The notes beneath the pieces were generated by a model, which was not told where the DNA came from, did no database searches, and worked only from the letters and a program-made list of their open reading frames with translations. DNA of 64,000 nucleotides from NCBI GenBank assembly GCA_943357285.1, contig CALRGJ010000006.1:10428-74427 (forward strand), given 5' to 3'. Source of the stretch: Candidatus Peribacteria bacterium. Its GTDB lineage: Bacteria; Patescibacteriota; Gracilibacteria; UBA1369; LOWO2-01-FULL-3. Positions 4,821 to 20,429 of this stretch are shown here, piece after piece; positions within the stretch are counted from its first letter, which is position 1; each line of letters opens with the position of its first letter. The position numbers were made by a program, and so were the translations under genes.

Positions 4821-5642
4821 CTACTTCAGCTTATTTAACGAAGGATGTCCAAGAATTGATTTCATCTGATCAATGGCGATCTGGTTGAGTTCTAGTAATC
4901 TGTGCTCGGGTGTGAGACCTCGCTTTATTAATACCGCATTCAGACTTTCAAGATTACACAACACAACCAATTGCTCAATAGTGGCATAGTCTCGCACATT
5001 TCCTTCTTTATCTGGATTATGTTCGCGCCATTCTTTTGCAGTCAGATTGAAAAGTGCCTTGTTCAACAAGTCTCCTTCGGTCGCATAGATAAATTTATCT
5101 GGTATGTTGCTGATTTTTAAAGGAATTAAATTTTGTTTTATTGCATCTGTATGAATTTTATAATTGACCTTAGCCAATTCTCTTTTTACATCCCATGATA
5201 AGGAAGACTGATTGTTTTCAGTTTCTTTGAGTCTCTGAAATTCTTTAATTAAATAAAGTTTAAATTCTGGACTGATCCAAGATGCAAATTCAAAAGCGAT
5301 ATCCTTGTGGGCGAAGGTGCCACCATTTTTACCAGATCTAGATATAAGACCAATCGCTCCAGTTTTGTTTATCCATCTTTGAGGTGATAATACAAAAGAA
5401 TTACTTCCAGCTTCAATCCTAAAGGGGTCGAATTCGACCCCTTTAAAATCAGGATTATTTAAGTTTTCCCAAATACCCAAGAACTCTATAGTAGCTTTAG
5501 AACGCATCCAGTTTTTAACAATATCCTTTGGTTCGAATTGATTTTTGAAACGTGCAATATCAGTAAGAGATATATAATCATCTTTGTTCTTCTGAAATAA
5601 TGAAATCTCCATACCTTTCACTTCAATTTTTTTATTTTCCAT
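4821..5642 (-). CDS. KilA-N domain-containing protein
   Basis: The N-terminus YISLTDIARFKN...VKNWMRSKATIEFLGIWENLNNPDF matches the KilA-N DNA-binding domain pattern. Confidence 0.8.
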   Translation of the reverse strand: MENKKIEVKGMEISLFQKNKDDYISLTDIARFKNQFEPKDIVKNWMRSKATIEFLGIWENLNNPDFKGVEFDPFRIEAGSNSFVLSPQRWINKTGAIGLISRSGKNGGTFAHKDIAFEFASWISPEFKLYLIKEFQRLKETENNQSSLSWDVKRELAKVNYKIHTDAIKQNLIPLKISNIPDKFIYATEGDLLNKALFNLTAKEWREHNPDKEGNVRDYATIEQLVVLCNLESLNAVLIKRGLTPEHRLLELNQIAIDQMKSILGHPSLNKLK

Positions 5643-7505: not shown

Positions 7506-7625
7506 TTTTGAGGATTTTATGAACAGATTCAAATTAGCTCATTTGAAATGGAACGTCAAACCGGACAAAGCTAAGGCAGATTCAAGGAGTGGTGTCGCGT
7601 GAAGTACGCACCCAAAGTGTTACAT

Positions 7626-7659
7626 GGAAAAGGCCCACCCGACTTTCGTCGGGCAGGCC
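7626..7659 (-). terminator. rho-independent terminator of the M23 gene
   Basis: Minus strand: GGCCTGCCCGAC-GAAA-GTCGGGTGGGCC followed by TTTTCC, 18 nt after the stop at 7677. Confidence 0.65.
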
Positions 7660-7676
7660 CCTCGCATTTTCTCTGT

Positions 7677-9935
7677 CTATTTACATGTAGGGGATTTTAC
7701 TGGTGCTTTGATGCGTACAAGCACGCTGGCATTTGGAGTAGCGATGTCAACGTAGTACGTTTTAAGCGTTGGAGGGGTTGTTGGATTGAAGGTAAGTGGA
7801 CCATCGTATGGATTCCAGACTTCGATCGGTGGCTGATTTTTTTCATCAACCAGGATCTTGATTCCTTCAGGACCTCCTTTAATCAATCCCACCATGGGGA
7901 GTTCATCACAACCTCCCTGTATGGAAGGAATCATGAAATAGCCCATAGGCATTAGTTCAACTGTAATGAAACTGTAGGTGTCGGTGCCAGGGATGAGGTG
8001 GGAAATTGACCACTGCCCACCTGGGGAACCGATCCACACAGAGAAGCCTTTCTCAGGGTCGCAGGTCCAGTTTTGAGTATCTACTAGACACTGCCCACCA
8101 ATGCACTTTCCCACCGGGCAGTTGTAGCAGGGATCCGCTTTGCACTTGTTGGCTGAGTTGCAGATCTGACCTTCCGGACATGAGGGACACAGTTGGCTGA
8201 GGCCATCGCATCCGGGATTTGTCATTGCACACTTGCCACATTCGCATCCGAGTTCTTCGCAGGACTGAACTTTGCATTTGTAGTGACATTTACCATCGAC
8301 AGCTGAGCAGAATTTGTCGTTGGGACATGTCCCGCAACTTCCGCCACACGAGTCCGAGCCGCACTCATTTTGGTAGCAGGCGGGCTTGCAGGTTTGTGTA
8401 TCCTTGCCGTCCGTGCTTGCATAAAAACTTCCAGCATCCTGCTCTCCTGTGCCGCCGCCGTACTGACCGCTGCCGGGATTTTCATCCTGAGAAACGGTGC
8501 TCTGACCTTGGCCGCACATGTAGCCCGACTGATTGCACTCGCACCCGCCCTGACACTTGTTTTTGTAACAGTAGCAGGGCGAAAGTGAAGTGATCATTCG
8601 CGCATACTCGCCGCGTGTCACGAATTCGTAGGGGTCGTATTGCAGAAGATCCTTGTCGATTCCGTTGTAGTAGGCGATGGTTTGCAGATACTTGTAGGAC
8701 CAGTCGCTGCTCTTGAGTTTCAGGAATTTGGCATACATGCCGGTCTTGAGTTCCGCCTTGTTGGCTTTGACCGCAGACTCGACTGCCATTTTCGCTGCTT
8801 CCGAGAAGTAAATCTCCTGTTCAGGGTTGAAGTGATCGTTGTCCTTGCTGATGACGCCGTACTTCACGCCGCAGACCACGAAGGGATAGAACCATTGAGA
8901 AGGATTTACATCCGTGAATGGTTCCAGAGTTCCTTCGCAGTCTTTGTCGAGACCGAAAAGAGCCAGTGCAATTTTCAGCGCTTCCGCTCGGGTGAGGTTA
9001 TCATCCTTGTGGAATTTACCGTCGCTTTTGCCGCTCACGGCACACTCGTGCCAGAGGTAGTTCACTGCCCAGGCAGTAGTGCTATCCGAAGAACTGAGAT
9101 CCTTGAAAGGAGTCTCGCTCTTGTTCTCGCAGTCCTCATTCATCGGGCATTGCATCTCGCAGACTTGAGGCGGATCAGGCTCCTGCTCTGGAGGGGTGGG
9201 TTCTTCTTGAGAATTATCCACTTCCGAGCAGTCAGCCTTTTCCACGTTTGTCAGCTTGAGCGCAGTGTAGATGCCATCCGTATAGATGTCGTTGCCGACG
9301 ATGCACTTAGGCACGCCGTTGCCGTCAGTGAATCCCATCTCGATGGGCAGGTGAGTCTCGCAGTCCTCGAACTGGAAGTGGAGGTGAGCACCTGAAACAT
9401 TTCCAGTCTTGCCGATTTCTCCGATCTTAAGACCCTGACACACCTCCATATCCTGAGCCACGCTTACGGACCCATCAAGCATGTGTGCGTAACGAGTGCA
9501 GATGTTGTTGCCATGATTGAGCAGCACGAAGTTGCCCCAGCCCTTGGATTTGCCAATCTCCTTCACGGAGCCGTCAGCAGAAGCCAACACTGAATCACCC
9601 ATGTCAGAATCTTCAGGCAAGCTGAAGTCCCAACTGAAAACCGCGTGCTCCAGAACAGTATGAGACGAATCGCAGAACGAGAGCGGATCTGTACCATACT
9701 TTTGATCGCACGCCTCGCAATGCATGCCCCAGGACTGAGTGATTTCCCAGTTGTAGCCCTGCGGCACCGGCACCTTGAAGTTGCTGCCGATGAGGTGGAG
9801 GCGATTGATCGAGTAGCCGACTTCAGTAGAAGTAGTATCGAATTGAATGGAGTTAATCTCCTTTTCCTTGTTGTTGGAATTGCACGCCGTGATCACCATG
9901 ATCATGACGAGCAGCTTGTAGATGTTGTGCAGCAT
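7677..9935 (-). CDS. lipoprotein with M23 peptidase domain, three SLH-like repeats and a cysteine-rich region
   Basis: Lipobox VITAC. M23 motifs (GSVKEIG...GNFVLLNHG...TRYAHM...GNVSGAHLHFQFE). SLH-like repeats (FKDLSSSD..TAWAVNYL...LTRAEALKIA; FTDVNPSQWFYPFV). A Cys-dense block (CGSDSCGGSCGTCPNDKFC...). Strong SD aaGGAGAAAgctcATG. The gene is much richer in G+C than its neighbours. Confidence 0.85.
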   Translation of the reverse strand: MLHNIYKLLVMIMVITACNSNNKEKEINSIQFDTTSTEVGYSINRLHLIGSNFKVPVPQGYNWEITQSWGMHCEACDQKYGTDPLSFCDSSHTVLEHAVFSWDFSLPEDSDMGDSVLASADGSVKEIGKSKGWGNFVLLNHGNNICTRYAHMLDGSVSVAQDMEVCQGLKIGEIGKTGNVSGAHLHFQFEDCETHLPIEMGFTDGNGVPKCIVGNDIYTDGIYTALKLTNVEKADCSEVDNSQEEPTPPEQEPDPPQVCEMQCPMNEDCENKSETPFKDLSSSDSTTAWAVNYLWHECAVSGKSDGKFHKDDNLTRAEALKIALALFGLDKDCEGTLEPFTDVNPSQWFYPFVVCGVKYGVISKDNDHFNPEQEIYFSEAAKMAVESAVKANKAELKTGMYAKFLKLKSSDWSYKYLQTIAYYNGIDKDLLQYDPYEFVTRGEYARMITSLSPCYCYKNKCQGGCECNQSGYMCGQGQSTVSQDENPGSGQYGGGTGEQDAGSFYASTDGKDTQTCKPACYQNECGSDSCGGSCGTCPNDKFCSAVDGKCHYKCKVQSCEELGCECGKCAMTNPGCDGLSQLCPSCPEGQICNSANKCKADPCYNCPVGKCIGGQCLVDTQNWTCDPEKGFSVWIGSPGGQWSISHLIPGTDTYSFITVELMPMGYFMIPSIQGGCDELPMVGLIKGGPEGIKILVDEKNQPPIEVWNPYDGPLTFNPTTPPTLKTYYVDIATPNASVLVRIKAPVKSPTCK

Positions 9936-10250
9936 GAGCTTTCTCCTTGTTGTAAACAGACTGAGATGTCAAAGAACATGCCGTGTATTTCACGGCTAAA
10001 GTTCACCTAGACTATTGATTCTTGGAACGAAGGTATCTCTCGATCCTCTTATTCACGTATGAACCACAATGCAACCTTCATGCTAATACAATAAAAAAAA
10101 TCTCAAAATAAAATATAAATAAAAAAGCCTAAAGAGCAGCAGCAAAACAAAAACTAAACTTAAAAAGTGTTGAACAGGTCCGTTCGACACAAAATATTTG
10201 CAAAAAAAAATAGCCCGTAGCTTAATGTAAACATTTATAACAATTCAAAT

Positions 10251-10949
10251 ATGAATAAGATTATTTTACTTTTATGTATATTCCTGACCCTTACAGCGTG
10301 TGAGCAAAAAACAATTATTTCAACACGAAATTCAGCAGCAGAAACAGACTACAAGAAAATTAGTGAGTCAATAACTGAAGCTGCCTTCAAAGCGACACCA
10401 TTGATGTCTCAAATTAAGAATCCAAAATTACTTTCAGATTCATACTGTGCAAAAACTACCGACAAAAATGAAGTTCAAAAAATTATAATAAATGAGAATA
10501 TCGCGACTAAATTTGAAAGCAGCCTTGATGCCCTCTATTCTGGAAAAGAAAATAAATTTCAAGTTGGAAGCGCTTATAAAGTTTGCAAGAAAAATAAAGA
10601 AATTTACGTTATTTTTCGATCAACTACGGATCCATCGTTTTTAATTGCTATATGGAAAGATGAAAATTCATTCGATTTCTTCCATGATGAGAATAAAGAA
10701 ATAAAATACTTTGGTAACGATGGTGGAGTGACATATTTATTGGCTGATGCTCAGAGCCCAAACAGTCTTGTTTATATGGCTGCACAAGATTCGCCGTCTT
10801 TTTCTTGGATGATAGACTCTTTGGATCCAAATACTTTAGAAGCTAGACAAATTGAAAATTGTAAAATAGCTTTTGAGTACAAATCAAAGCCATTCTCGGT
10901 AAATACCACTAAATCAACTCTCACCTGCGACAAGCAGTATAAGCCTTGA
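10251..10949 (+). CDS. hypothetical lipoprotein
   Basis: Signal peptide with lipobox LTLTAC. No recognisable domain. Confidence 0.6.
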   Translation: MNKIILLLCIFLTLTACEQKTIISTRNSAAETDYKKISESITEAAFKATPLMSQIKNPKLLSDSYCAKTTDKNEVQKIIINENIATKFESSLDALYSGKENKFQVGSAYKVCKKNKEIYVIFRSTTDPSFLIAIWKDENSFDFFHDENKEIKYFGNDGGVTYLLADAQSPNSLVYMAAQDSPSFSWMIDSLDPNTLEARQIENCKIAFEYKSKPFSVNTTKSTLTCDKQYKP

Positions 10950-11663: not shown

Positions 11664-14600
11664 TTACTTCGCCGGATTAATTTTTATCATAGCCGGTTCA
11701 GATATATTTGCCACATTATGATCATAGAATGAAGTGATTTTTGCCGGATCAGCATAGAAAGTACCCGGATTTACCACCTTCGCGTAATACACTATCTTTG
11801 ATCTGGATGTTCCATGAATTACTTCTTTGAAATATGGGAACCAGCAGAAACTAATTTCCTGACCATTAATCATAAATGGATAGCTCAAATTTGTATCAAA
11901 AGTACTTCCATACATTGGCATATAGCTGATTGCAGGGGTTAGTCCGCTTGGTAGAATATCTGTAATTCTATAAAACGGTGAAGCTACGGAACCAGGACTT
12001 CCCAAATCAATCTCTACTCTTACTAAATCACCTTCATTAAATTCTGTGGTTTCTTTTCCATTCACTAAATATTTTCTCGTAATGTTGAGTCTGGAATCTT
12101 TCTTGAATTCCGCCGGTTCAACACCATCTCTGTAGTTCAATACGGCAGCAAGTGATCCCTCACTCACTGATACTGCCACCACGTCACCTGGAGAAGCCAA
12201 AATAGATTTAGACTCGCCGGTTTTTATGGAAACATTTTCGCTAGCTTGATTCAATTTATATTTAAATGAAACAGGTGAAGTCTTCGCATTTTTTATAGCA
12301 CCTGTAACATATCCAAGTTCATATAAATTGGTCAGATCTTCATTACCAAAACCACTCATGTTTACTCCTTTCCATAACGTCTCAGCAGTAAGTACATCAT
12401 TGATTGAGGAAGCTAGATCCGCACCCAAGGCAAGATTATGGATTCCCGTATTGCTAGTGTCTCCAACCAGCTTAGTTGATACTTCCTGAAGAATCTTTCT
12501 TGCATCCGGGTAGCTACCAATCTTCGCATAAGCTAGACCAAGGTATAGTTTTTGTTGAACAGATAATTCTTTAGCTTTAGCAATTTCTCTAATATCTAGT
12601 AGCACTGGTTCTTTCATGCTCGCCAAGCCTAAAAGTGAAAGAACTATGTCATCCAAATTAGATTTTGGATCTTTAAATACGTTATAGAAATATCTCTTCA
12701 GCTCATGTTTGCTATATCTATCTAAATTCACATCAAAAGCCACAACTAGTGCGGAAAGTTTCAAGTCATTGCTAGCATATGGTAGTAACGCCAATCCACC
12801 ATCTCTTTGGTAGCTCTCTAAAATATAATTACCTTCATCTTCATCGTGCTGTGCAAATTCTTTACCGAAATATTTTTTTAGAATATCTGCTGCCGCTTTG
12901 CTCGCCACTATTTGATCAAGACGTTTACCATCATTATAATAAAGAGAAAGTAAATTGTAATAATAATATGCTACGCCACTATCTAGGAATTGGATTTCAG
13001 TCTGCCCTTGTTTACCAAGGTTAAAGACAGTTTTATCATCAATATTTCTGATAGTCTTTACTACATCTTGAGTCAGACGTGATCCCTTCACCTCAAAAGG
13101 TTTTTTCATGGCGTCTTTCATTGATCTTGAATCAGCTTTTACTGTCACATCATGAGTTCCAAGAGGAAGAGCAGGTAGATTGAAATAGCTTCCAACAAAG
13201 GCCTTCCCATCAATAGCTTTTCCTTTTACTCCATCAACATCTGGATTGAATGTAACGGCATCACCATCTTTTAATTCTTTACCATAAGCTCTGAATTTAA
13301 TCATCGGATTATCTTTCTCTGAATATTCACGGTTCATCACCATGTCTACAAAGAAAGGTAGAGTCACTTTGATATTTTTTGTTTCAGTTCCGGCACTAAG
13401 ACTATCTATGTTAATTGCTGTAGCAAGAATTCTCCAAGAAGTGATATTGTCAGGAACTTTGAATTTTACTGATCCACGACCATCGGAACCTACGTCAGCG
13501 CTATAGAAAAGTGCAGTGTCCTTAAACTGCTGTCTTACATAATAGGCACCGTCACCTTTTTCATTATGAACAAAGAATCCATTGGCAAAATAGGTGTGAT
13601 AATCTTTAATTTCCATATTATAAACATCTACACTCTTCACTACTGGTCTCATTGAAGCAATCTTAATTAAGTGACCATCTTTATCAACCATACTGTCACC
13701 TAATTTTAAGTCTGCAACCTTTATCCATTGTCCATTAGCAAAGACTACATGTTCAGCTGTCACTTCAAGATTTTCATTGATAACAAAATATTCTGAAACA
13801 TTTTTGATAGTCTTTCCCACAACTTCTGCAGGAATTAATTTTGATGAAAATTCATTTTCTTTTGTGAGAATTTTGTCACCCTTTTTAATATCTTTAATTG
13901 CTTTCGTAGTGCCATCCGCCATAGAGATTTGAGTTTCACCGGTAAAACATCCGCCTTTCCCACCCTCACCAGATTTGGCATTTAGTGGATTATTATGCGT
14001 AAAGTAGCTCAATAAAATTCCTGAACCGGATGAGTAATATATTTGTTCCAAAGGATCGCTCATACCTGAATACACAGTTTTGTAGTAAGCCTCATCTACG
14101 ATGTTGAAATTTATTTTTGCAGGCATTGGGGCACCATCATTGTTGGTAACATAAACCGACAAACTAACTTCTTCACCAGGTTTATATTCTTCTTTGTTAC
14201 TATCAATTTTCAATTTCAAATTTTTCATCTCCCTCTTGTATTCGATATTTGTGCTGTTGGCCTGTTTATAAGTTTTTCCATCGAACCAAACTCCATCCAC
14301 AAATACATTCGGAACATTATCTTTTGAGAATTTGAAAGAATAATATGGAGAATCTTTAATCTCATATTTTTGTATACCATTACTTTCCTGCATGAATAAA
14401 AATCTACCTTTTGTTTCTTTTGGTAAATCAATAGTGTAGTTCTTTGAAATTACCGTATCCACAGTTTCTCCTATATCAAAACGGTAATTTGAGCCGTTCC
14501 AATATTCATTGGAATTTTTTGAAAGATTTTCTTTTAATACTTTCATGCTGTAATACTCATAATCATTTGAACCATCGCTCATATCTCCATAAACATAAGA

Positions 14601-17183
14601 TGTAGAGTAAGCTGGACCATTTTGATCATCAATAGTTTTTAGCGCAACAATATAATATTTATCTGAATCGATAGGGAACTGATAGCTTGCTTCTCCATTC
14701 TCATTTGTCACCCCGCTTATTGACGCAATTTTTTCTTTTTTCTGCGTGTAGTTATAGGTTTTTGCAGTCACTTTATTTATAAAATCATAATATTCACCGC
14801 TTTCTTCTTTGTCCCAACTTACTTGAATAATATTGCCGGTAAAATTTCTATTTTTAGCAACATCACCAAGATAGTCATCGTAACTTTTCTCGCTGGCATT
14901 GTTTATTCTTTTTAAATCCACCCACTTGGTTTTTACCGCTAAATTGGCAACTGTCGTGCCATCATCTTTTTTCACTGTCTCGGCTCTGCTCGCGATATTT
15001 AAGTGAGAATTAAATATTCTCACATCATTATTCGCTTGGATAGCACTTTCCTCGGATAATTTTGATTCAATATTATAATAGAAATAATTTATATCTGAGC
15101 AGTATTCTTCGTACTCATAAGTACAATCACTTTTTTTAGCTACCATGCTCGCCTTCGCTTCACCTTTAGTATTTGTAGTAAAAGTTTTTGATTTATTGGA
15201 AGAATCCAGCTGTCCATTATCCGTGATAGCTAAATTTGCAACCGGAGTCCCATCAAAAAATTCCGATTTAATATTGAAGTTTACCGTCTCTCCTACAAAC
15301 ACTGCATGTTTATCATTCTCCATCGTGAGATTATATGCAGGTTTAATATAATCTTCGACTTCAAAAGTAGTGGATGAAATCTGATCTTCACCTTGATAAA
15401 TTTGTATTGAGTAAGTAGATGGAGTGAAACTCTTTATCTCAAATTCACCCTCTATTGCCCCATCTTTATCAAATGTCAGTGGAATTTCTCTTACAAAAGT
15501 ATCCCAGTTATGCATTAGCTTCACCTTCAAATTATCAGGTTTGGCCACTCCGCTTTTTGGAGTAACGAATCCCCAGAAATGAACTTTATCCGTTGGTTTA
15601 TATTTTGAACGATCAGTAATAAGAGTCTTCCAGTAACTCATGCTCTTGTCTACCGAGAAGTAAACATAACCATCCAAAGGTGTAACTAAAGTCTTTCCAT
15701 CCGGAGCAGTTATTTTTGCGAAAGAAGCTACCATTTCACCATTTGTATCCGTAAAATCTTTCCAGGACTGAGGAGTTGTGAATTTTGCAATTCCATCACT
15801 TCCGGTTTTGATTACTTGATCAAGATCTTTGATTTGAATAGTAGCACCTTCCACCGGTTTTCCGGTTTGCAAATCATTCACCCAAATTACAGAATCAGTT
15901 ATAGAAGTCGTAATATAAGAAGATAAATCCGTTATTTGCACCAAAGTTTGAGCCTTATGGCCATTGTCATCTACCTGGAATAAGTAGTAGCCTTTATCTA
16001 AAGTTTTCTCTGGCAAGTATAGATATGAATTCCAGCGTGGGGTCTCTATAAGACCTTGCATGCTTCCCAAATCCTGCAATCCTGTAGTTGAGTGCAAATA
16101 CTTATTATTTGAATAATAAGCCCAGCGAGGAACATTTGCTGAATTCTTAAGCGCACTCAAATACTGGTTTTGATCGGTATACTTGTAGACTTGAATCGAA
16201 ACATCTTTCTTGCCCTGTTGCTCAAAACTATAAGAATAAACCTCCATTGCTATAGAACTTGTTGGAGAAATTTCATAGTAATCTTTGCTGAAATTGAAAT
16301 TTTGACCTGATGTAGATGGCCCTCCGTCTGTTTCAAATTTAAAAACAAAATCTTTTTCCAGTTTTTTGTCGGTATCTTTGATGCCAAATCCTTGCTTCAA
16401 TTTTACTGTATAAATAGTTTCAGAATTCAAAGGACTATTTGGTATGAAGCTCATAATTCTATCATGTTTTTCAAATCTTCCATCCACTTTAGGACTTATT
16501 TCAAAGAAATTTTGGACATTTTTGAAATCATAAGAAGCATGGCTGAAATTAATTTCAATTCCTGTATTTGTAGGCACGTAGCTGGATGCATTTGTTGGAA
16601 TACTTCCGTCGACTTTGAAATTATCTTGAATTTGATAAGCCCAACTTTGATCGCCATCATCAGTTTCAATATAGAAATTATATATTGTATTAGCCTCTAG
16701 TCCCTTTACCGCCTCCACTCTATATTTTCCTTTATCGGTTTTCTCAACATTGAGTTTAACTTCCGGCTGAACTTTTAGATTTTCCTTAATAATATCGACA
16801 CTGAGATCTTCGCTTGCAGTTAGAGTAAACCCACTATCGCTAGCCACTCCGCTCGCATCTTCAGTGATTGCCACCATCTCGAAATCCGCATATACAACCT
16901 GCATATTTGATCCAAACCAACCACGCAAACCACTGCTGAATACTAGAGCAACAATCAAAAGTCCTGAGATAACTGAAACTGATACTAATCTTTCCGGCAT
17001 CTTGAAAAGTGATTTGAATAAATCAACAAAAGTAGCTTTTTTATCTGTAACATCTTCCGCAATTTCGGCAGTGTGCTGTTTTTTCTTCATATCAACTTTC
17101 TTAGATATATATTTCCATAGATATTCTTTGCTCTTCTTGAGCTCTAGGTTATCCACCGACCTATTTGTGTATTTTTTATCCAT
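11664..17183 (-). CDS. membrane-anchored alpha-2-macroglobulin-like protein with embedded Hint domain (possible anti-sigma fusion)
   Basis: 1839 aa. The N-terminal ~65 aa are hydrophilic, then one TM (LVSVSVISGLLIVALVF), then long beta-rich MG-like repeats. An A2M_N_2-like segment (KPGEEVSLSVYV...NFNIVDEAYY) and the A2M signature (RQQFKDTALF...VPDNITSWRILA) follow. The TED-like region (YQRDGGLALLPY) has no CxEQ. The start lies 3 nt after the sigma-factor stop. Confidence 0.85.
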   Translation of the reverse strand: MDKKYTNRSVDNLELKKSKEYLWKYISKKVDMKKKQHTAEIAEDVTDKKATFVDLFKSLFKMPERLVSVSVISGLLIVALVFSSGLRGWFGSNMQVVYADFEMVAITEDASGVASDSGFTLTASEDLSVDIIKENLKVQPEVKLNVEKTDKGKYRVEAVKGLEANTIYNFYIETDDGDQSWAYQIQDNFKVDGSIPTNASSYVPTNTGIEINFSHASYDFKNVQNFFEISPKVDGRFEKHDRIMSFIPNSPLNSETIYTVKLKQGFGIKDTDKKLEKDFVFKFETDGGPSTSGQNFNFSKDYYEISPTSSIAMEVYSYSFEQQGKKDVSIQVYKYTDQNQYLSALKNSANVPRWAYYSNNKYLHSTTGLQDLGSMQGLIETPRWNSYLYLPEKTLDKGYYLFQVDDNGHKAQTLVQITDLSSYITTSITDSVIWVNDLQTGKPVEGATIQIKDLDQVIKTGSDGIAKFTTPQSWKDFTDTNGEMVASFAKITAPDGKTLVTPLDGYVYFSVDKSMSYWKTLITDRSKYKPTDKVHFWGFVTPKSGVAKPDNLKVKLMHNWDTFVREIPLTFDKDGAIEGEFEIKSFTPSTYSIQIYQGEDQISSTTFEVEDYIKPAYNLTMENDKHAVFVGETVNFNIKSEFFDGTPVANLAITDNGQLDSSNKSKTFTTNTKGEAKASMVAKKSDCTYEYEEYCSDINYFYYNIESKLSEESAIQANNDVRIFNSHLNIASRAETVKKDDGTTVANLAVKTKWVDLKRINNASEKSYDDYLGDVAKNRNFTGNIIQVSWDKEESGEYYDFINKVTAKTYNYTQKKEKIASISGVTNENGEASYQFPIDSDKYYIVALKTIDDQNGPAYSTSYVYGDMSDGSNDYEYYSMKVLKENLSKNSNEYWNGSNYRFDIGETVDTVISKNYTIDLPKETKGRFLFMQESNGIQKYEIKDSPYYSFKFSKDNVPNVFVDGVWFDGKTYKQANSTNIEYKREMKNLKLKIDSNKEEYKPGEEVSLSVYVTNNDGAPMPAKINFNIVDEAYYKTVYSGMSDPLEQIYYSSGSGILLSYFTHNNPLNAKSGEGGKGGCFTGETQISMADGTTKAIKDIKKGDKILTKENEFSSKLIPAEVVGKTIKNVSEYFVINENLEVTAEHVVFANGQWIKVADLKLGDSMVDKDGHLIKIASMRPVVKSVDVYNMEIKDYHTYFANGFFVHNEKGDGAYYVRQQFKDTALFYSADVGSDGRGSVKFKVPDNITSWRILATAINIDSLSAGTETKNIKVTLPFFVDMVMNREYSEKDNPMIKFRAYGKELKDGDAVTFNPDVDGVKGKAIDGKAFVGSYFNLPALPLGTHDVTVKADSRSMKDAMKKPFEVKGSRLTQDVVKTIRNIDDKTVFNLGKQGQTEIQFLDSGVAYYYYNLLSLYYNDGKRLDQIVASKAAADILKKYFGKEFAQHDEDEGNYILESYQRDGGLALLPYASNDLKLSALVVAFDVNLDRYSKHELKRYFYNVFKDPKSNLDDIVLSLLGLASMKEPVLLDIREIAKAKELSVQQKLYLGLAYAKIGSYPDARKILQEVSTKLVGDTSNTGIHNLALGADLASSINDVLTAETLWKGVNMSGFGNEDLTNLYELGYVTGAIKNAKTSPVSFKYKLNQASENVSIKTGESKSILASPGDVVAVSVSEGSLAAVLNYRDGVEPAEFKKDSRLNITRKYLVNGKETTEFNEGDLVRVEIDLGSPGSVASPFYRITDILPSGLTPAISYMPMYGSTFDTNLSYPFMINGQEISFCWFPYFKEVIHGTSRSKIVYYAKVVNPGTFYADPAKITSFYDHNVANISEPAMIKINPAK
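13563..13949 (-). other. Hint / mini-intein-like (BIL-like) domain inside the A2M-like CDS
   Basis: Residues 1079-1207 read CFTGETQISMADG...LEVTAEHVV...DYHTYFANGFFVHN. This gives Cys1, the TxxH block B and the terminal His-Asn. It is 129 aa with no endonuclease insert. The +1 residue is Glu (HN|EKGDG). Confidence 0.8.
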
Positions 17184-17186
17184 TGT

Positions 17187-17762
17187 TTAGGCTAGGTTAG
17201 GTGATAATAAGTCTCTCAAATTTGTCATTGCCCTATGCATCACGGCTTTGACAGCGCTTTCTGAACTTTCTGTGGTCTCAGCAATTTCTTTCTGTGACAT
17301 ACCTGTGAAGTAGTACAGACTTATTACATTTTGATGCTCTGGTTTGAGAGTGGCCAAGGCATCGCTCAATTTAGTTAGTTCTTCATCTCCGAATAATGTC
17401 TTATCTAATTCCTTTAACTCTTCCTTCACATCCACTGCTAATCCTTCATGTCCTTCCGGTACGTCTTCCAAAGCAGCAGAGCTTGGGTTTCGACGCTGAT
17501 TTTTTAGCGCGTTAATAGCGATTCTATAGAGCCATACTTTGATTGATATGCCAGTCCATTTGAATTTGTGTAAGCTTTCGAAAGCTTTGATGAAGGTGTC
17601 AGCCGTTAAGTCATATGCGACCTCTGAATTGAGAGTGCGTTTGACCAGATATTTGAGAATCATCTCGTAGTAGAATTCATAGATTTTCTCAAAAGCTTGA
17701 GGGTTGTCCTTGAATTCAACTAATATCTGTTGCTGGACCTCGGAAGGAAGATCCTGGGACAT
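17187..17762 (-). CDS. ECF-type RNA polymerase sigma-70 family factor
   Basis: Region 2 (DLTADTFIKAFESLHKF...KVWLYRIAINALKNQRR) and region 4 (ISLYYFTGMSQKEIAETTESSESAVKAVMHRAMTNLR). Confidence 0.9.
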   Translation of the reverse strand: MSQDLPSEVQQQILVEFKDNPQAFEKIYEFYYEMILKYLVKRTLNSEVAYDLTADTFIKAFESLHKFKWTGISIKVWLYRIAINALKNQRRNPSSAALEDVPEGHEGLAVDVKEELKELDKTLFGDEELTKLSDALATLKPEHQNVISLYYFTGMSQKEIAETTESSESAVKAVMHRAMTNLRDLLSPNLA

Positions 17763-18341: not shown

Positions 18342-20429
18342 ATGGATAAAATAAATATGAAAAATAAAAACAAAAAACAGTATTTGGCCATCGTTTTGGC
18401 CATCGGTATAATATTCACCAGCACTCAAAATGCCGACATTGGTAAGTACATTAGACCTTCGGTTTTTGTGGATTTCAGCATTGAGCAAAGTCGCAAAATT
18501 TCTATGGTAAGCAATATAGAAGAAGACCTGCTTACAGCTAGAAATGTTCTTAGAGGTTGTGATGTTGTGGTTGTGGGAGGAGGTGCCTCCGGTACGGCAG
18601 CGGCTATACAATCTGGGAGAATGGGTGTGAAGACCTGTATTATTGAACAAACAGATTGGCTGGGGGATATGCTAACAGCTTCAGGAGTCTCAGCTATTGA
18701 TGGTGACCCCGCAAAAACCTCAGGTATTTTTCGCGAATTTTTAGATAGAGTAATTAGTTATTATAAAAAAGAAGGTAAATCCGCTCAAACTCATCTTTGT
18801 CATGTAAGTCCATTTTGTTATGAGCCTTCTGTAGGAGCCGCAATTTTGAATGAGATGGTTTCAGAAGTGCCTACTTTGAAAGTTTATTACAACTCTTATG
18901 TTACCAAAGTGTACCGTGAAGGTAATTTAATTAGAGGTGTAAAATTTAAGAATAATAAGGGTGGTGACTACGTTGTCCCTGCACATGTAGTAATTGATGC
19001 TACTCAGTTTGGTGATCTGATGTATATGGCAAATATTCCTTATGACATCGGTGTAGATGAGAATTCCACCGAGTTTCATGCGAATATTACTTCTCAATGT
19101 ATTCAGCCACTCACTTTCGTCGCAGTTTTGGAATTCAAAGGTAAAGATGTAACTATTCCCGAACCTGAAAATTATAATATCAATAATTATAAATGTACTA
19201 TTCCAAATAAGCTTTGTCCCGGATCAAGCAGTCAGTTTGATATGGAGCGTCTTTTGGAATATGGACATCTCCCAAATGATAAAATGATGATCAATGTTCC
19301 AAGCCATTCATATGGTAATGATTATGATGCCTCAAGAGAAGCTCTGGATAATTTTAGTCGCGCCGATATTTTCCAAAAGGCTAAAGATTTTTCTTTGGGA
19401 TATATCTATTTTATACAGAAGGAACTTGGTTTTAATTATTATGGATTGAGCAATGAATTTGGAACTGATGATAAACTCGCAAAACTTCCATATGTGAGAG
19501 AAAGCAGACGTCTTGTGGGACAATATCGTCTCCAAGAAGAAGATGTACTTCCTGATAGTGATGGGCGTTCTAAAATTTTCTCAGATAGCATAGCAATTGG
19601 TGATTATCCAATTGATTTACACTTCTGTGAAAGAGGAAAAGGAGATTTTTATTACCCAATTCCTCCGTATCAAATTCCATATGGAGTGACAGTGCCTAAG
19701 GAAATTGATGGATTTCTTGTTGCTGGTCAAAATATCTCAGTGAGTCACATCGTAAATGGTACTACAAGAATGCAGCCCGTAGTAATGCAGTTGGGACAAG
19801 CTGTCGGAATGGCCTCTGCTCTTTCCGTAATTAATGATGTTCAGCCTCGCAATGTTCCAATTTTAGAACTACAAGAAAAATTAATTAATGCGGGATCAAA
19901 GGTTCTATATTTTAGCGATGTGAATACTGACAGTTTTTCTTATCCATACGTTACCAAACTTGCTTTGAAAAACATTCTTCGCGGTTACAACGATTTTTCT
20001 TTCAAGCCAAATGTTGCAATCAATAATTATGATATGACCATGATGTTCGCTAAGGCTTCAGCTCTTACCGAATATCAACAATTTAACGAGAATACAACTT
20101 TTGAATATGAAGACGCCCTAGCCTTATTAAAAGAAAAAAACATTTTTGATAAATCGTTAGATTTATCAAAAGTAGAAAAACCTGTTACCAGAGAGGAATT
20201 GGCGCATGTAATTTCTAGATTTGTAGATCCAACCGGTAAACACACAGCTTCTAGCAAAAACTTTAGCGACGTTACTAAAAAGAGTCGATTTCAAGCTGAT
20301 ATATCAAAGCTCGCCAGCCTGGACATAGTAAGTTCTAAACATGATAAATTCAGACCAGGAGATGTGGCAACTCGTGCTGAAGCGGTGACCATGCTTGGCA
20401 AAGCCATGGAGTATTCATCATCACTTTAG
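18342..20429 (+). CDS. exported FAD-dependent oxidoreductase with C-terminal SLH repeats
   Basis: Signal peptide. Dinucleotide-binding motif VVVVGGGASGTAAAIQSGRMG. C-terminal SLH-like repeats (FSDVNTDSFSYPYVTKLALKNILRGY..F.P; FSDVTKKSRFQADISKLASLDIV...FRPGDVATRAEAVTMLGKAM). Confidence 0.8.
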   Translation: MDKINMKNKNKKQYLAIVLAIGIIFTSTQNADIGKYIRPSVFVDFSIEQSRKISMVSNIEEDLLTARNVLRGCDVVVVGGGASGTAAAIQSGRMGVKTCIIEQTDWLGDMLTASGVSAIDGDPAKTSGIFREFLDRVISYYKKEGKSAQTHLCHVSPFCYEPSVGAAILNEMVSEVPTLKVYYNSYVTKVYREGNLIRGVKFKNNKGGDYVVPAHVVIDATQFGDLMYMANIPYDIGVDENSTEFHANITSQCIQPLTFVAVLEFKGKDVTIPEPENYNINNYKCTIPNKLCPGSSSQFDMERLLEYGHLPNDKMMINVPSHSYGNDYDASREALDNFSRADIFQKAKDFSLGYIYFIQKELGFNYYGLSNEFGTDDKLAKLPYVRESRRLVGQYRLQEEDVLPDSDGRSKIFSDSIAIGDYPIDLHFCERGKGDFYYPIPPYQIPYGVTVPKEIDGFLVAGQNISVSHIVNGTTRMQPVVMQLGQAVGMASALSVINDVQPRNVPILELQEKLINAGSKVLYFSDVNTDSFSYPYVTKLALKNILRGYNDFSFKPNVAINNYDMTMMFAKASALTEYQQFNENTTFEYEDALALLKEKNIFDKSLDLSKVEKPVTREELAHVISRFVDPTGKHTASSKNFSDVTKKSRFQADISKLASLDIVSSKHDKFRPGDVATRAEAVTMLGKAMEYSSSL

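What the first reader, a model, noticed from the sequence alone, without database searches (positions are those of the whole stretch)
7626..9952. GC-rich, SD-bearing M23 peptidase / SLH / Cys-rich lipoprotein looks horizontally acquired
Composition jumps inside this one gene. By hand count 36 of 60 bases are G/C in 8401-8460, against about one-third in flanking genes. Codons are GC3-biased (ctg, atc, aag, tac). The gene has a strong SD and its own GC-rich terminator. The protein combines a lipobox, an M23 (lysostaphin-like) peptidoglycan endopeptidase, three SLH-like wall-anchor repeats, and a ~150-aa block dense in Cys (CGSDSCGGSCGTCPNDKFC..CKVQSCEELGCECGKC..). An unassigned C-terminal beta domain follows. 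A wall-anchored lytic enzyme acquired by transfer could serve predation or epibiosis, or act as a competitive weapon. The SLH repeats match the anchoring system used by the native FAD protein at 18342.
Basis: partly seen in the sequence, partly recalled or inferred. Interest (0 to 1): 0.6.

Follow-up and report, generated by a model that had tools for sequence, protein, structure and literature searches.

The report
Native GC-rich modular wall-anchored M23 peptidase
The GC-rich gene is real, but it is not a recent foreign import: it is an old gene of this group of tiny uncultured bacteria (Peregrinibacteria) for a wall-anchored cell-wall-cutting enzyme whose head and tail are swapped between relatives, and its odd base composition is kept up by an unknown force.

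Summary
Observation confirmed. Window 7677-9935 (-) encodes a 752-aa lipoprotein: M23 peptidase, three SLH repeats, Cys-rich block, orphan beta domain. It has 52% GC (GC3 0.62) in a 38% GC genome (GC3 0.32), a strong SD in an SD-depleted genome, and a 16-bp terminator hairpin.

The HGT reading is not supported. The gene sits in the same purA/A2M-giant locus in all five congeners and in other genera. It is restricted to one GTDB family. It is GC-elevated in 16 of 18 orthologues. Its amino-acid make-up is AT-lineage-like (Lys far above Arg, Ala-poor), so the GC excess lies in silent sites. W>S substitutions run about twice as fast as in neighbouring purA. The SLH core keeps the genome's clock.

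Horizontal exchange does occur, but at module level among relatives: the catalytic head and the C-terminal tail are swapped independently around the conserved SLH core.

What maintains the GC-richness is unresolved. Translational selection, a DGR and simple amelioration are disfavoured, and gBGC is weakened by AT-rich recombining neighbours.

The scan has noted the same phenomenon before, in this genome and in other CPR genomes.

The parts
7624..7667 (-). Intrinsic-terminator-like hairpin (16-bp GC-rich stem, GAAA loop) followed by UUUUCC. It is preceded by the box ACAGACAGAGAAAATGCGA, which is conserved in the genus.
   Evidence: Fold -31.7 kcal/mol, z = -5.2; conserved downstream of the orthologues.
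7677..9935 (-). CDS of the 752-aa lipoprotein (stop codon 7677-7679). GC 0.517, GC3 0.616.
   Evidence: 100% match to cluster P0001.
9882..9935 (-). Signal peptide with lipobox ITAC (Cys18), followed by a roughly 30-aa disordered tether.
   Evidence: C18 invariant in 30 homologues; Lgt (two copies) and LspA present in the genome; pLDDT below 50 for residues 18-50.
9291..9785 (-). Head module: M23 Zn-endopeptidase domain with an N-terminal Cys/His-rich extension (HCxxC...C..SH). D103, H151, H184 and H186 are invariant; the canonical His of HxxxD is absent.
   Evidence: Pfam 1.7e-19; Foldseek ShyA 1.4e-9; profile alignments start at D103; two allele classes differ by three loop indels; head dS G000-G004 1.44 and G000-P0002 0.09.
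9126..9290 (-). Acidic, Pro-rich linker, disordered.
   Evidence: pLDDT about 37 for residues 241-260.
8571..9125 (-). Conserved core: three SLH repeats forming one pseudo-trimeric wall-binding module (motifs LTRAEALK, FSEAAKMA, VTRGEYARM).
   Evidence: Foldseek hits to Sap SLH 3pyw (TMt 0.73) and SpaA-SLH (0.74-0.78); 88-94% aa identity among the four closest sequences; dS 0.39-0.51, equal to purA.
8076..8570 (-). Gly-rich disordered spacer, then a Cys-rich knotted block (about 30 Cys), predicted as small beta hairpins.
   Evidence: pLDDT 87-94 for residues 520-600; no Pfam hit; no PDB fold match.
7680..8075 (-). Tail module: orphan C-terminal beta-sandwich-like domain, exchanged as a cassette.
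   Evidence: Only 24 hits among 1.84 billion representatives, best 48% identity; 20-28% identity to the closest kin but 47% to G001; no PDB match with E below 0.07.
9940..9948 (-). Shine-Dalgarno sequence AAGGAGAAA, 4 nt before the ATG.
   Evidence: Conserved in orthologues of the genus and in G020, G167, G181, G300 and G016; SD is rare genome-wide.
9936..10075 (-). Conserved leader or regulatory region: hairpin GCCGTG-AAATA-CACGGC (9980-9996), box ATGTTCTTTGACATCTC (9963-9979), and three GTGAA repeats.
   Evidence: Near-invariant across the genus; the box is also present in genera G017, G020, G167 and G181; unique in this genome; no Rfam hit; no excess stability or covariation.

Best explanation
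This is a native, vertically inherited gene restricted to one family-level clade of Peregrinibacteria-type CPR bacteria. It is not a recent foreign insert.

Protein (mostly shown). It is exported and lipid-anchored through Cys18. A flexible tether carries a Zn-dependent M23 peptidoglycan endopeptidase. A triple-SLH module fixes the protein to the cell's own pyruvylated wall polymer. A disulfide-knotted Cys-rich stalk and an orphan beta domain project beyond it.

Evolution (shown). The SLH core follows the genome's clock. The catalytic head and the C-terminal tail exist as anciently diverged alleles, and homologous recombination shuffles them between related lineages around the conserved core and the conserved 5' leader.

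Function (inferred). It is an accessory surface enzyme, one of four M23 proteins in the genome. Its variable groove loops and variable tail set which peptidoglycan or surface it engages. My estimate is about 45% that it acts on another cell's wall at a contact interface (host, prey or competitor), about 40% that it remodels or separates the cell's own wall, and about 15% something else.

Composition (shown to be maintained; cause inferred). The GC excess sits in silent sites and, together with the SD, is kept up across genera by a gene-specific force. My best guess, at about 35%, is selection at the mRNA level: a GC-rich, structured, SD-led, long-lived or specially translated message, a class shared with other Cys-rich secreted lipoprotein genes. 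Recombination-linked GC-biased gene conversion is next, at about 20%.
For: Lineage: 65 full-architecture homologues, and every one that carries a source name is from Peregrinibacteria, Gracilibacteria or Patescibacteria. The orthologue was found in 5/5 congeners and 15/24 genomes of the family, and in 7/12 family genomes against 0 of about 288 elsewhere in the class.

Synteny: the order purA, M23-SLH, lipoproteins, A2M giant holds in G004, G001, G005, G003, G024 and in two independent metagenome contigs. The identity rank order for purA equals that for M23-SLH. SLH-core dS is 0.39-0.51 against 0.39-0.45 for purA.

Persistent anomaly: orthologues are 7-21 points more GC-rich than their flanks in 16 of 18 cases, with GC3 of 0.46-0.79.

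Silent-site nature: K/(K+R) is 0.87-0.92, Arg 0.7-1.0%, Ala 4-6%, and GC1 equals the genome's. The strain-specific 700-aa island, by contrast, is Arg/Ala-rich, with K/(K+R) 0.38.

Substitution regime: W>S 0.215 and S>W 0.192 per site give an equilibrium GC3 of about 0.53. purA gives 0.114 and 0.238, an equilibrium of 0.32 that equals its present value.

Not expression bias: tuf, groEL, dnaK, rpoBC, eno and atpD have GC3 of 0.27-0.34. The codon-shift correlation is 0.47 with these genes and 0.92 with the other GC-rich genes.

Mosaic: (head dS 0.09 for G000-P0002 against 0.39 for their cores; tail 20-28% identity to close kin).

Protein. CsaB, Lgt and LspA are present. H(x)nD spacing is known to vary (PMC9662197).

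Accessory role: three other canonical M23 genes exist, one of them also M23 plus three SLH, with 0% Cys and GC3 0.29.

mRNA: more local structure than synonymous shuffles in the target and three orthologues (z -2.7 to -4.1), not seen in five AT-rich genes.
Against: The cause of the GC maintenance is not identified. The mRNA-structure excess is also seen in the probably foreign MFS gene, so it may be generic to GC-rich sequence. SLH-core dS is not lower than purA dS, so any silent-site selection is weak. Two orthologues (G016, G009) have nearly lost the GC excess, and G016 still keeps its SD. The equilibrium GC3 from substitutions (0.44-0.59) is below the present value at the sites scored (0.68-0.80), so some decay is going on. 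The first Zn ligand is not assigned, because no coordinates could be inspected. Expression, localisation and substrate are untested. The catalytic domain lies between the membrane anchor and the wall anchor, which favours action on the cell's own wall.
Confidence: 0.75

Rival explanations
1. Ancient horizontal acquisition from a GC-rich donor (for example a Myxococcota-like source of Cys-rich repeats) at the base of the family. The GC-rich codons and the SD would then be leftovers that have not yet ameliorated.
For: Every strongly GC-rich gene in this genome, conserved or sporadic, carries an SD, whereas the bulk genes do not. The family appears suddenly in one GTDB family. There is net S>W flux and two nearly ameliorated orthologues. 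Peribacteria Cys-rich proteins weakly resemble Myxococcus Cys-rich repeats (PMC4736985).
Against: Silent sites are saturated between genera (dS above 1.3 already within the genus), yet GC3 stays at 0.58-0.79. With the neighbour's substitution rates, about 80% of the excess would be lost per 0.75 substitutions per site. The W>S rate is twice that of purA. The amino-acid composition is AT-lineage-like, the reverse of what incomplete amelioration predicts. No donor homologue was found.
Confidence: 0.12
2. GC-biased gene conversion. The gene is a recombination hot spot, and repair of heteroduplex DNA in favour of G/C raises GC at silent sites.
For: There is direct evidence of repeated recombination in this gene. 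The W>S fixation rate is raised while dS is not reduced. gBGC has been proposed for bacteria (PMC4450053, listed; I did not read the paper).
Against: The neighbouring genes also show allele replacement, yet they are AT-rich. These are the A2M giant (dS 1.2 against 0.42, GC3 0.29) and the divergent lipoprotein, which has non-homologous allele types at 28-38% GC. The GC-rich segment follows the gene's borders. The effect (+30 GC3 points) is far larger than reported bacterial gBGC, by my recollection. It does not explain the SD.
Confidence: 0.2
3. Ordinary translational selection: a very highly expressed surface protein uses optimal codons.
For: C-ending two-fold codons (TTC, TAC, ATC, AAC) are preferred both here and in the highly expressed genes. 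SLH and S-layer proteins are often abundant (general knowledge).
Against: The highly expressed genes prefer T-ending four-fold codons (GCT, GGT, CGT, ACT) and do not prefer G-ending codons. The target prefers GGC, CGC, CTG, AAG and GAG. The shift correlation is 0.47 against 0.92 with the GC-rich genes, and the highly expressed genes' GC3 is at or below the genome mean.
Confidence: 0.06
4. Assembly or binning artefact: a chimeric join of a GC-rich fragment into an AT-rich contig.
For: None beyond the composition jump itself. Coverage could not be checked.
Against: The same gene in the same neighbourhood, with the same composition contrast, occurs in at least seven independent assemblies. The leader and terminator junction sequences are conserved.
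Confidence: 0.01

Closest known systems
M23B peptidoglycan endopeptidases (ShyA, LytM, lysostaphin, zoocin A, DipM-type LytM domains)
   Same: Same fold and sequence family (Pfam 1.7e-19; Foldseek 1e-9 to 1e-5). The Zn-ligand Asp, the catalytic His and the HxH pair are all present. Like lysostaphin and zoocin A, the catalytic domain is joined to separate targeting modules.
   Different: The canonical His of Hx3D is replaced throughout the family. A Cys/His-rich N-terminal extension (HCxxC...C..SH) precedes the core, and eight invariant Cys lie in the domain. The architecture of lipid anchor, SLH, Cys-rich stalk and orphan tail is not found among the solved members. No immunity gene was identified.
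M23A enzymes (LasA, beta-lytic protease) and phage gp13
   Same: They show that the first motif is H(x)n D with long spacers (12 in LasA, 7 in gp13; PMC9662197). H92(x)10D103 would fit this range. They are secreted lytic enzymes stabilised by disulfides (the disulfides are from my memory).
   Different: No LasA structure appeared among the top Foldseek hits, and the sequence groups with M23B. The H92-D103 spacing changes to 18 in the other head allele, so the ligand assignment is uncertain.
SLH-anchored S-layer-associated murein hydrolases of Bacillus anthracis (BSL proteins such as BslO); from memory, not tested here
   Same: A triple-SLH module binds pyruvylated secondary wall polymer (CsaB-dependent) and carries a wall hydrolase. 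This genome has CsaB and about 28 SLH proteins.
   Different: Those proteins have the SLH module at the N-terminus behind a signal peptide, with no lipid anchor, Cys-rich stalk or cassette-like head and tail. They are cell-separation autolysins and are not reported to be compositionally anomalous.
Large cysteine-rich extracellular proteins of Ca. Peribacter riflensis (Anantharaman et al. 2016, PMC4736985)
   Same: Same phylum-level group. They are exported and Cys-rich, proposed to act in attachment, and strain variation is concentrated in these proteins.
   Different: Those genomes are 58.5% GC, so no composition contrast exists there. Those proteins are much larger (about 1,655 aa), and the paper reports neither an M23 nor an SLH domain in them.
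Modular phage endolysins and bacteriocin-type lysins (for example mycobacteriophage endolysins, PMC3314691)
   Same: Catalytic and binding modules are shuffled independently by recombination, giving mosaic genes.
   Different: Here the mosaic gene is chromosomal, syntenic, and anchored to the producer's own envelope. There is no phage context, and the KilA-N gene 2 kb away is itself conserved.

Membership tests
Peptidase family M23 (PF01551) | Profile match above the curated cut-off, and the M23 beta-sheet fold | tested here: met
   70.2 bits against a cut-off of 28.7; Foldseek probability 1.00 to ShyA, DipM, LytM and lysostaphin.
Peptidase family M23 (PF01551) | Second motif HxH, plus a catalytic His about 30 residues before it | tested here: met
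   H184-L-H186 and H151 are invariant in 30 homologues and align to the HLH and the catalytic His of ShyA.
Peptidase family M23 (PF01551) | First motif H(x)nD supplying two Zn ligands | tested here: inconclusive
   D103 is invariant and aligns to the ligand Asp. Position -4 is Val or Lys, not His. Invariant H92 (spacer of 10 or 18) or H72 may substitute. Model coordinates could not be inspected.
Peptidase family M23 (PF01551) | Zn-dependent cleavage of peptidoglycan cross-links | not testable with these tools
   Needs purified protein and sacculi.
SLH wall-anchoring module (PF00395) | Three tandem SLH repeats folding into one pseudo-trimer | tested here: met
   Pfam 35.5 bits against a cut-off of 20.8; TMt 0.73-0.78 to Sap and SpaA SLH domains; pLDDT 85-97.
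SLH wall-anchoring module (PF00395) | The genome can make the ligand (pyruvylated wall polymer, CsaB) | tested here: met
   PF04230 match at G000:C7:46644-47519, E = 1.5e-48.
Bacterial lipoprotein | Signal peptide ending in a lipobox with invariant Cys; Lgt and LspA present | tested here: met
   The lipobox reads ITAC, and C18 is invariant. Lgt is present in two copies and LspA in one.
Recently acquired genomic island (HGT) | Atypical composition and codon usage | tested here: met
   GC3 z = +4.6.
Recently acquired genomic island (HGT) | Absent from, or at a different locus in, close relatives; nearest homologues in another taxon | tested here: not met
   Present at the same locus in 5/5 congeners and in other genera; all homologues are in the same lineage.
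Recently acquired genomic island (HGT) | Donor-like amino-acid composition; mobility genes or insertion scars at the borders | tested here: not met
   K/(K+R) 0.89, Ala 4.8%; no meaningful flanking repeats; the borders are a conserved leader and a terminator.
Diversity-generating retroelement target | A template-repeat copy of the variable region near a reverse transcriptase | tested here: not met
   No second copy of any part of the gene exists in the genome. A DGR-type RT exists, but on another contig.
Bacteriocin-type lysin (lysostaphin or zoocin A class) | A linked immunity gene that modifies the producer's cross-bridge | not tested
   The neighbours are two small lipoproteins without Pfam matches. 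No FemABX-like gene was sought.

The most novel reading that the evidence does not exclude
A small set of Cys-rich secreted lipoprotein genes in AT-rich, SD-less CPR genomes forms a separate expression 'dialect'. The set includes this M23-SLH gene, the Dicty_CTDC-repeat lipoprotein on contig C8, and the zinc-finger pair at window 58.5 kb. These genes have GC-rich silent sites, a strong SD, and their own conserved leader and terminator. On this reading, selection holds the dialect in place over family-level time because these messages are handled differently from bulk mRNAs (stability, translation mode, or coupling to export and disulfide folding). Within that class, this gene would be a cassette-swapping, contact-dependent peptidoglycan-cutting enzyme that CPR cells use on partner cells.
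Probability: 0.25. Interest if true: 0.8.

Novelty: new variant of a known kind. Interest (0 to 1): 0.55.

Why it matters
Composition-based HGT calls would flag this gene, and others like it, as foreign in CPR genomes. Here that call is wrong, and the reason is itself of interest. The silent sites and translation signals of one gene are held far from the genome's equilibrium for a very long time. That is a clean natural case for separating selection on mRNA from biased gene conversion in bacteria.

Biologically, a non-essential, wall-anchored M23 endopeptidase has a catalytic head and a distal tail that are exchanged as cassettes between related lineages. This makes it a concrete candidate for the molecules through which ultra-small, probably symbiotic bacteria engage other cells' walls, a process for which almost no effectors are known.

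Tried and rejected
2. Bounding inverted repeats or a mobile-element frame: only low-complexity A/T matches.
3. Rfam families in and around the gene: none at E <= 1.
4. Structured leader RNA: conserved in sequence, but fold z = -0.5 and almost no covariation. The sigma-70 scan found no promoter in the leader despite an invariant TTGACA.
5. DGR: no template repeat.
6. Fold of the Cys-rich block plus tail: confident model, but no PDB match (best E = 0.07) and no Pfam hit even at E = 10.
7. Donor search: the C-terminal domain alone gave only 24 hits among 1.84 billion representatives, and the ones I could identify are the same family members already found. No phylogeny of the M23 domain against non-CPR enzymes was attempted, because similarity there is only about 25-35% over 80 residues.
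8. Synonymous-shuffle mRNA test: positive but not specific, since the MFS import behaves alike.
9. Co-variation of the neighbouring lipoprotein with the head allele, as a test for an immunity-like pair: only partial, and explained by linkage.
10. One Pfam search was wasted on a truncated 60-aa string.
11. Literature searches for SD-less translation in Patescibacteria and for CPR M23 effectors found nothing relevant.
Full report
THE OBJECT. The finding corresponds to one ORF, window 7677-9935 on the minus strand, 752 aa. It equals G000:C6:18104-20362 in a 1.21-Mb, 25-contig, 38.2% GC genome that is 99% complete. GC is 0.50-0.54 across the gene and 0.30-0.40 on either side. Gene GC is 0.517 and GC3 is 0.616, against a genome mean GC3 of 0.320 with sd 0.064, so z = +4.6. 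Codon usage differs sharply: TTC 0.96 vs 0.35, ATC 0.69 vs 0.20, CTC+CTG 0.71 vs 0.17, and no TTA or AGA.

The SD AAGGAGAAA lies 4 nt before the ATG. This matters because the genome is SD-depleted. Only 38 of 1016 ORFs have even a 4-mer core upstream, against 11% of random 17-mers. tuf, groEL, dnaK, eno, atpD and rpoC have none, although the 16S rRNA ends in CCUCC. The 3' hairpin folds at -31.7 kcal/mol (z = -5.2) and is followed by UUUUCC.

THE PROTEIN. Pfam finds M23 (residues 111-190, 1.7e-19) and SLH (35.5 bits). An AlphaFold2 model built on 30 homologues (mean pLDDT 76.7) is confident for the M23 core, a three-SLH module, the Cys-rich block and the C-terminal beta domain. The tether (residues 18-50), the linker (241-260) and the Gly-rich spacer (477-515) are disordered. 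Foldseek matches ShyA, DipM, LytM and lysostaphin for the head, and the Sap and SpaA SLH trimers (TMt 0.73-0.78) for the core.

Across 30 homologues, C18 (lipobox ITAC), D103, H151, H184 and H186 are invariant. Profile alignments to solved M23 enzymes begin exactly at D103, the ligand Asp. The canonical His four residues upstream is missing in the whole family. The invariant H92, or H72 within an HCxxC...C..SH extension, may replace it. The M23 review states that the motif is H(x)nD, with n = 12 in LasA and n = 7 in gp13 (PMC9662197). An active enzyme is therefore likely but not shown.

The Cys-rich block plus tail (second model, pLDDT 79.8) has no Pfam hit even at E = 10 and no PDB fold match, the best being E = 0.07. 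The tail domain alone finds only 24 proteins among 1.84 billion representatives.

The genome has Lgt (two copies), LspA and a CsaB-type pyruvyl transferase. It has 55 SLH repeats in about 28 ORFs, including the FAD protein at 18342-20429. It also has three other M23 genes with canonical HxxxD. One of these is also M23 plus three SLH, but with 0% Cys and GC3 0.29. The architecture itself therefore does not require GC-richness, and the target is an accessory fourth M23.

NOT A RECENT IMPORT. A search of 5.8 billion clusters returns 65 proteins with this architecture, and every hit that carries a source name is from Peregrinibacteria, Gracilibacteria or Patescibacteria. Hits outside the family are SLH-only, at E above 1e-12. 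The orthologue is present in 5/5 congeners and 15/24 genomes of the GTDB family. In a class-wide sample it was found in 7/12 family genomes and in none of about 288 others.

The locus is conserved. purA lies on one side, and two small lipoproteins plus an 1839-aa A2M-like giant lie on the other, in G004, G001, G005 and G003. purA is also adjacent in genus G024, and the giant is adjacent in G017 and G015. Two independent metagenome contigs add the ECF sigma gene and the FAD-SLH gene in the same order. The identity rank order to G000 is the same for purA (94.8, 87.9, 84.4, 83.9, 66.7%) and for the target. These independent assemblies also rule out a chimeric join.

THE ANOMALY IS INHERITED AND MAINTAINED. 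Of 18 orthologues examined, 16 are 7-21 points more GC-rich than their own flanks, with GC3 of 0.46-0.79 against flank GC of 0.34-0.45. G016 and G009 are nearly ameliorated. Within the genus, dS already exceeds 1.3. With purA-like rates a passive import would lose about 80% of its excess over that distance (my calculation from a two-state model).

In a polarised third-position test (G004 and P0004, with G000 as outgroup), purA gives S>W 0.238 and W>S 0.114 per site. That predicts an equilibrium GC3 of 0.32, which is exactly its present value. The target gives 0.192 and 0.215, an equilibrium near 0.53. The observed ratio of 58:31 differs from the 72:16 expected under purA rates by about 4 sd (my calculation). 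Parsimony bias works against this difference.

Highly expressed genes do not explain the shift. Their GC3 is 0.27-0.34, and they prefer T-ending four-fold codons. The target's codon shift correlates 0.47 with theirs but 0.92 with the other GC-rich genes.

Amino-acid composition settles the question of origin. The family has K/(K+R) of 0.87-0.92, Arg 0.7-1.0%, Ala 4-6%, and GC1 equal to the genome's. The strain-specific 700-aa island, by contrast, is Arg- and Ala-rich, with K/(K+R) of 0.38. The GC excess is thus a silent-site property of a protein with native composition.

A WIDER PATTERN. The genome holds other single-gene GC islands. A 752-aa, 11% Cys, Dicty_CTDC-repeat lipoprotein (PF00526, 8e-49) behaves like the target. 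It is conserved in 4/5 congeners, has 60-64% GC everywhere, K/(K+R) of 0.92, and is SD-led. An MFS gene (found only in G004, at 97% identity) and the 700-aa gene (found in no congener) look like ordinary recent imports. SD presence is associated with GC-rich ORFs: 6/14 against 63/1002. Earlier notes of this scan describe the same phenomenon in this window (a zinc-finger pair at 58.5 kb) and in other CPR genomes. I treated these as leads only.

MODULAR EXCHANGE. Sliding-window and per-module comparisons show three behaviours.
- The SLH core is 88-94% identical among G000, P0002, G004 and P0004, with dS 0.39-0.51, the same as purA.
- The head is 98% identical between G000 and P0002 (dS 0.09, against 0.39 for their cores). 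It is only 62-66% identical to all others (dS 1.2-1.4), while G004, P0004 and G005 share 84-90%. The two head classes differ by three loop indels around the M23 core.
- The tail of G000 is 20-28% identical to its closest kin but 47% to G001, and P0002 and P0004 share a 91% identical tail.
P0002 is therefore a recombinant, with a G000-type head on a P0004-type body. dN/dS within modules is 0.05-0.24, so each allele is under purifying selection. The high overall dN (0.23, against 0.013 for purA) reflects old alleles, not relaxed constraint. No template repeat exists, so a DGR is not involved.

CAUSE OF THE GC-RICHNESS. Recombination alone is insufficient. The A2M giant shows allele replacement in G004 (dS 1.2 against 0.42), and the adjacent divergent lipoprotein has non-homologous allele types. 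Both stay AT-rich. This weakens gBGC.

The target and three orthologues have more local mRNA structure than synonymous-codon shuffles (z -2.7 to -4.1), unlike purA, tuf, groEL, dnaK and the giant (z -1.0 to +2.6). But the imported MFS gene does too (z -3.4), so the test is not specific.

The unit has a leader that is far better conserved than its coding sequence. It has invariant stretches across the genus, and the box ATGTTCTTTGACATCT recurs in four other genera. It has no Rfam match, no excess stability and no covariation. G016, whose GC3 has fallen to 0.36, still has its SD.

I rank the causes as follows: mRNA-level selection first (about 35%), gBGC second (about 20%), ancient import with slow decay third (about 12%). 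The cause remains open.

FUNCTION. Shown: an exported lipoprotein with an M23 fold, an SLH wall anchor, and variable head and tail. Inferred: it is accessory, given its patchy presence in the family and the three other M23 genes in this genome. Old allele classes in the groove loops and in the distal domain point to a variable external partner. Against that, the catalytic domain lies between the membrane anchor and the wall anchor, which would suit action on the cell's own wall. My odds are about 45% for action on another cell's wall, 40% for self-wall remodelling, and 15% for something else.

COMPARISON AND NOVELTY. The protein is a new architectural variant of M23 peptidases. Cys-rich, strain-variable surface proteins of this phylum were reported in 2016, in 58.5% GC genomes where no composition contrast could be seen (PMC4736985). 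The papers I found describe neither the maintained silent-site GC and SD 'dialect' nor the head/tail cassette exchange.

Noticed in passing
G000:C8:8401-10659 (outside the window; locus L033:3402-5660): A 752-aa lipoprotein with 11% Cys and nine Dicty_CTDC repeats (PF00526, 8e-49). It has GC 0.61 and GC3 0.76, is SD-led, and has K/(K+R) 0.92. It is conserved in 4/5 congeners and is 60-64% GC in each, inside 36-46% GC flanks. This is the same maintained anomaly as in the target.
   Followed up: partly
G000:C7:49887-51989, C16:20391-21686, C4:55959-56903, C1:147221-147673: Further single-gene GC islands (55-65% GC). The 700-aa Arg/Ala-rich gene has no congener homologue. The MFS transporter is shared only with G004, at 97% identity. 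The 314-aa lipoprotein has only a 28% match in G004. These look like genuine sporadic imports and serve as a contrast to the target.
   Followed up: partly
whole genome; examples upstream of tuf, groEL, dnaK, eno, atpD and rpoC: The genome is depleted in Shine-Dalgarno motifs (3.7% of ORFs, below the random expectation of 11%) despite a canonical CCUCC 16S tail. Highly expressed genes instead share a TTAAC/TTAAT-like motif about 10-15 nt before the ATG.
   Followed up: partly
window 11664-17183 (-): An 1839-aa alpha-2-macroglobulin-like giant (MG2, A2M_BRD and A2M domains in its orthologue) carries a Hint/intein insertion. Its G004 allele is much more diverged (dS 1.2) than expected from the genome (0.42), suggesting allele replacement.
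   Followed up: partly
window 10251-10949 (+): A small lipoprotein, transcribed divergently from the target, exists as non-homologous allele types in sister genomes (type X in G000 and P0002, type Y in G004 and P0004). It is AT-rich and has no Pfam match.
   Followed up: partly
G000:C10:44382-44981 (contig end): An ORF with reverse-transcriptase motifs typical of diversity-generating retroelements (IGNLTSQ, YGDDF), cut by the contig end. Its target gene was not identified.
   Followed up: no
G000:C4:82635-84302: A second M23 plus three-SLH protein (555 aa) with canonical HLAVD and HLH motifs, 0% Cys and native composition (GC3 0.29). It is probably the housekeeping counterpart of the target.
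   Followed up: partly
window 4821-5642 (-): A KilA-N domain protein that is 97.8% identical to its G004 counterpart and lies in the same place. It is a conserved resident, not a marker of a mobile element next to the GC-rich gene.
   Followed up: partly
window 9936-10075 (-): The non-coding leader of the target is more conserved than the coding sequence. It contains three GTGAA repeats, a small hairpin and the near-palindromic box ATGTTCTTTGACAT, found across at least five genera. It is probably a regulator-binding site. An ECF sigma gene lies nearby at 17187-17762.
   Followed up: partly
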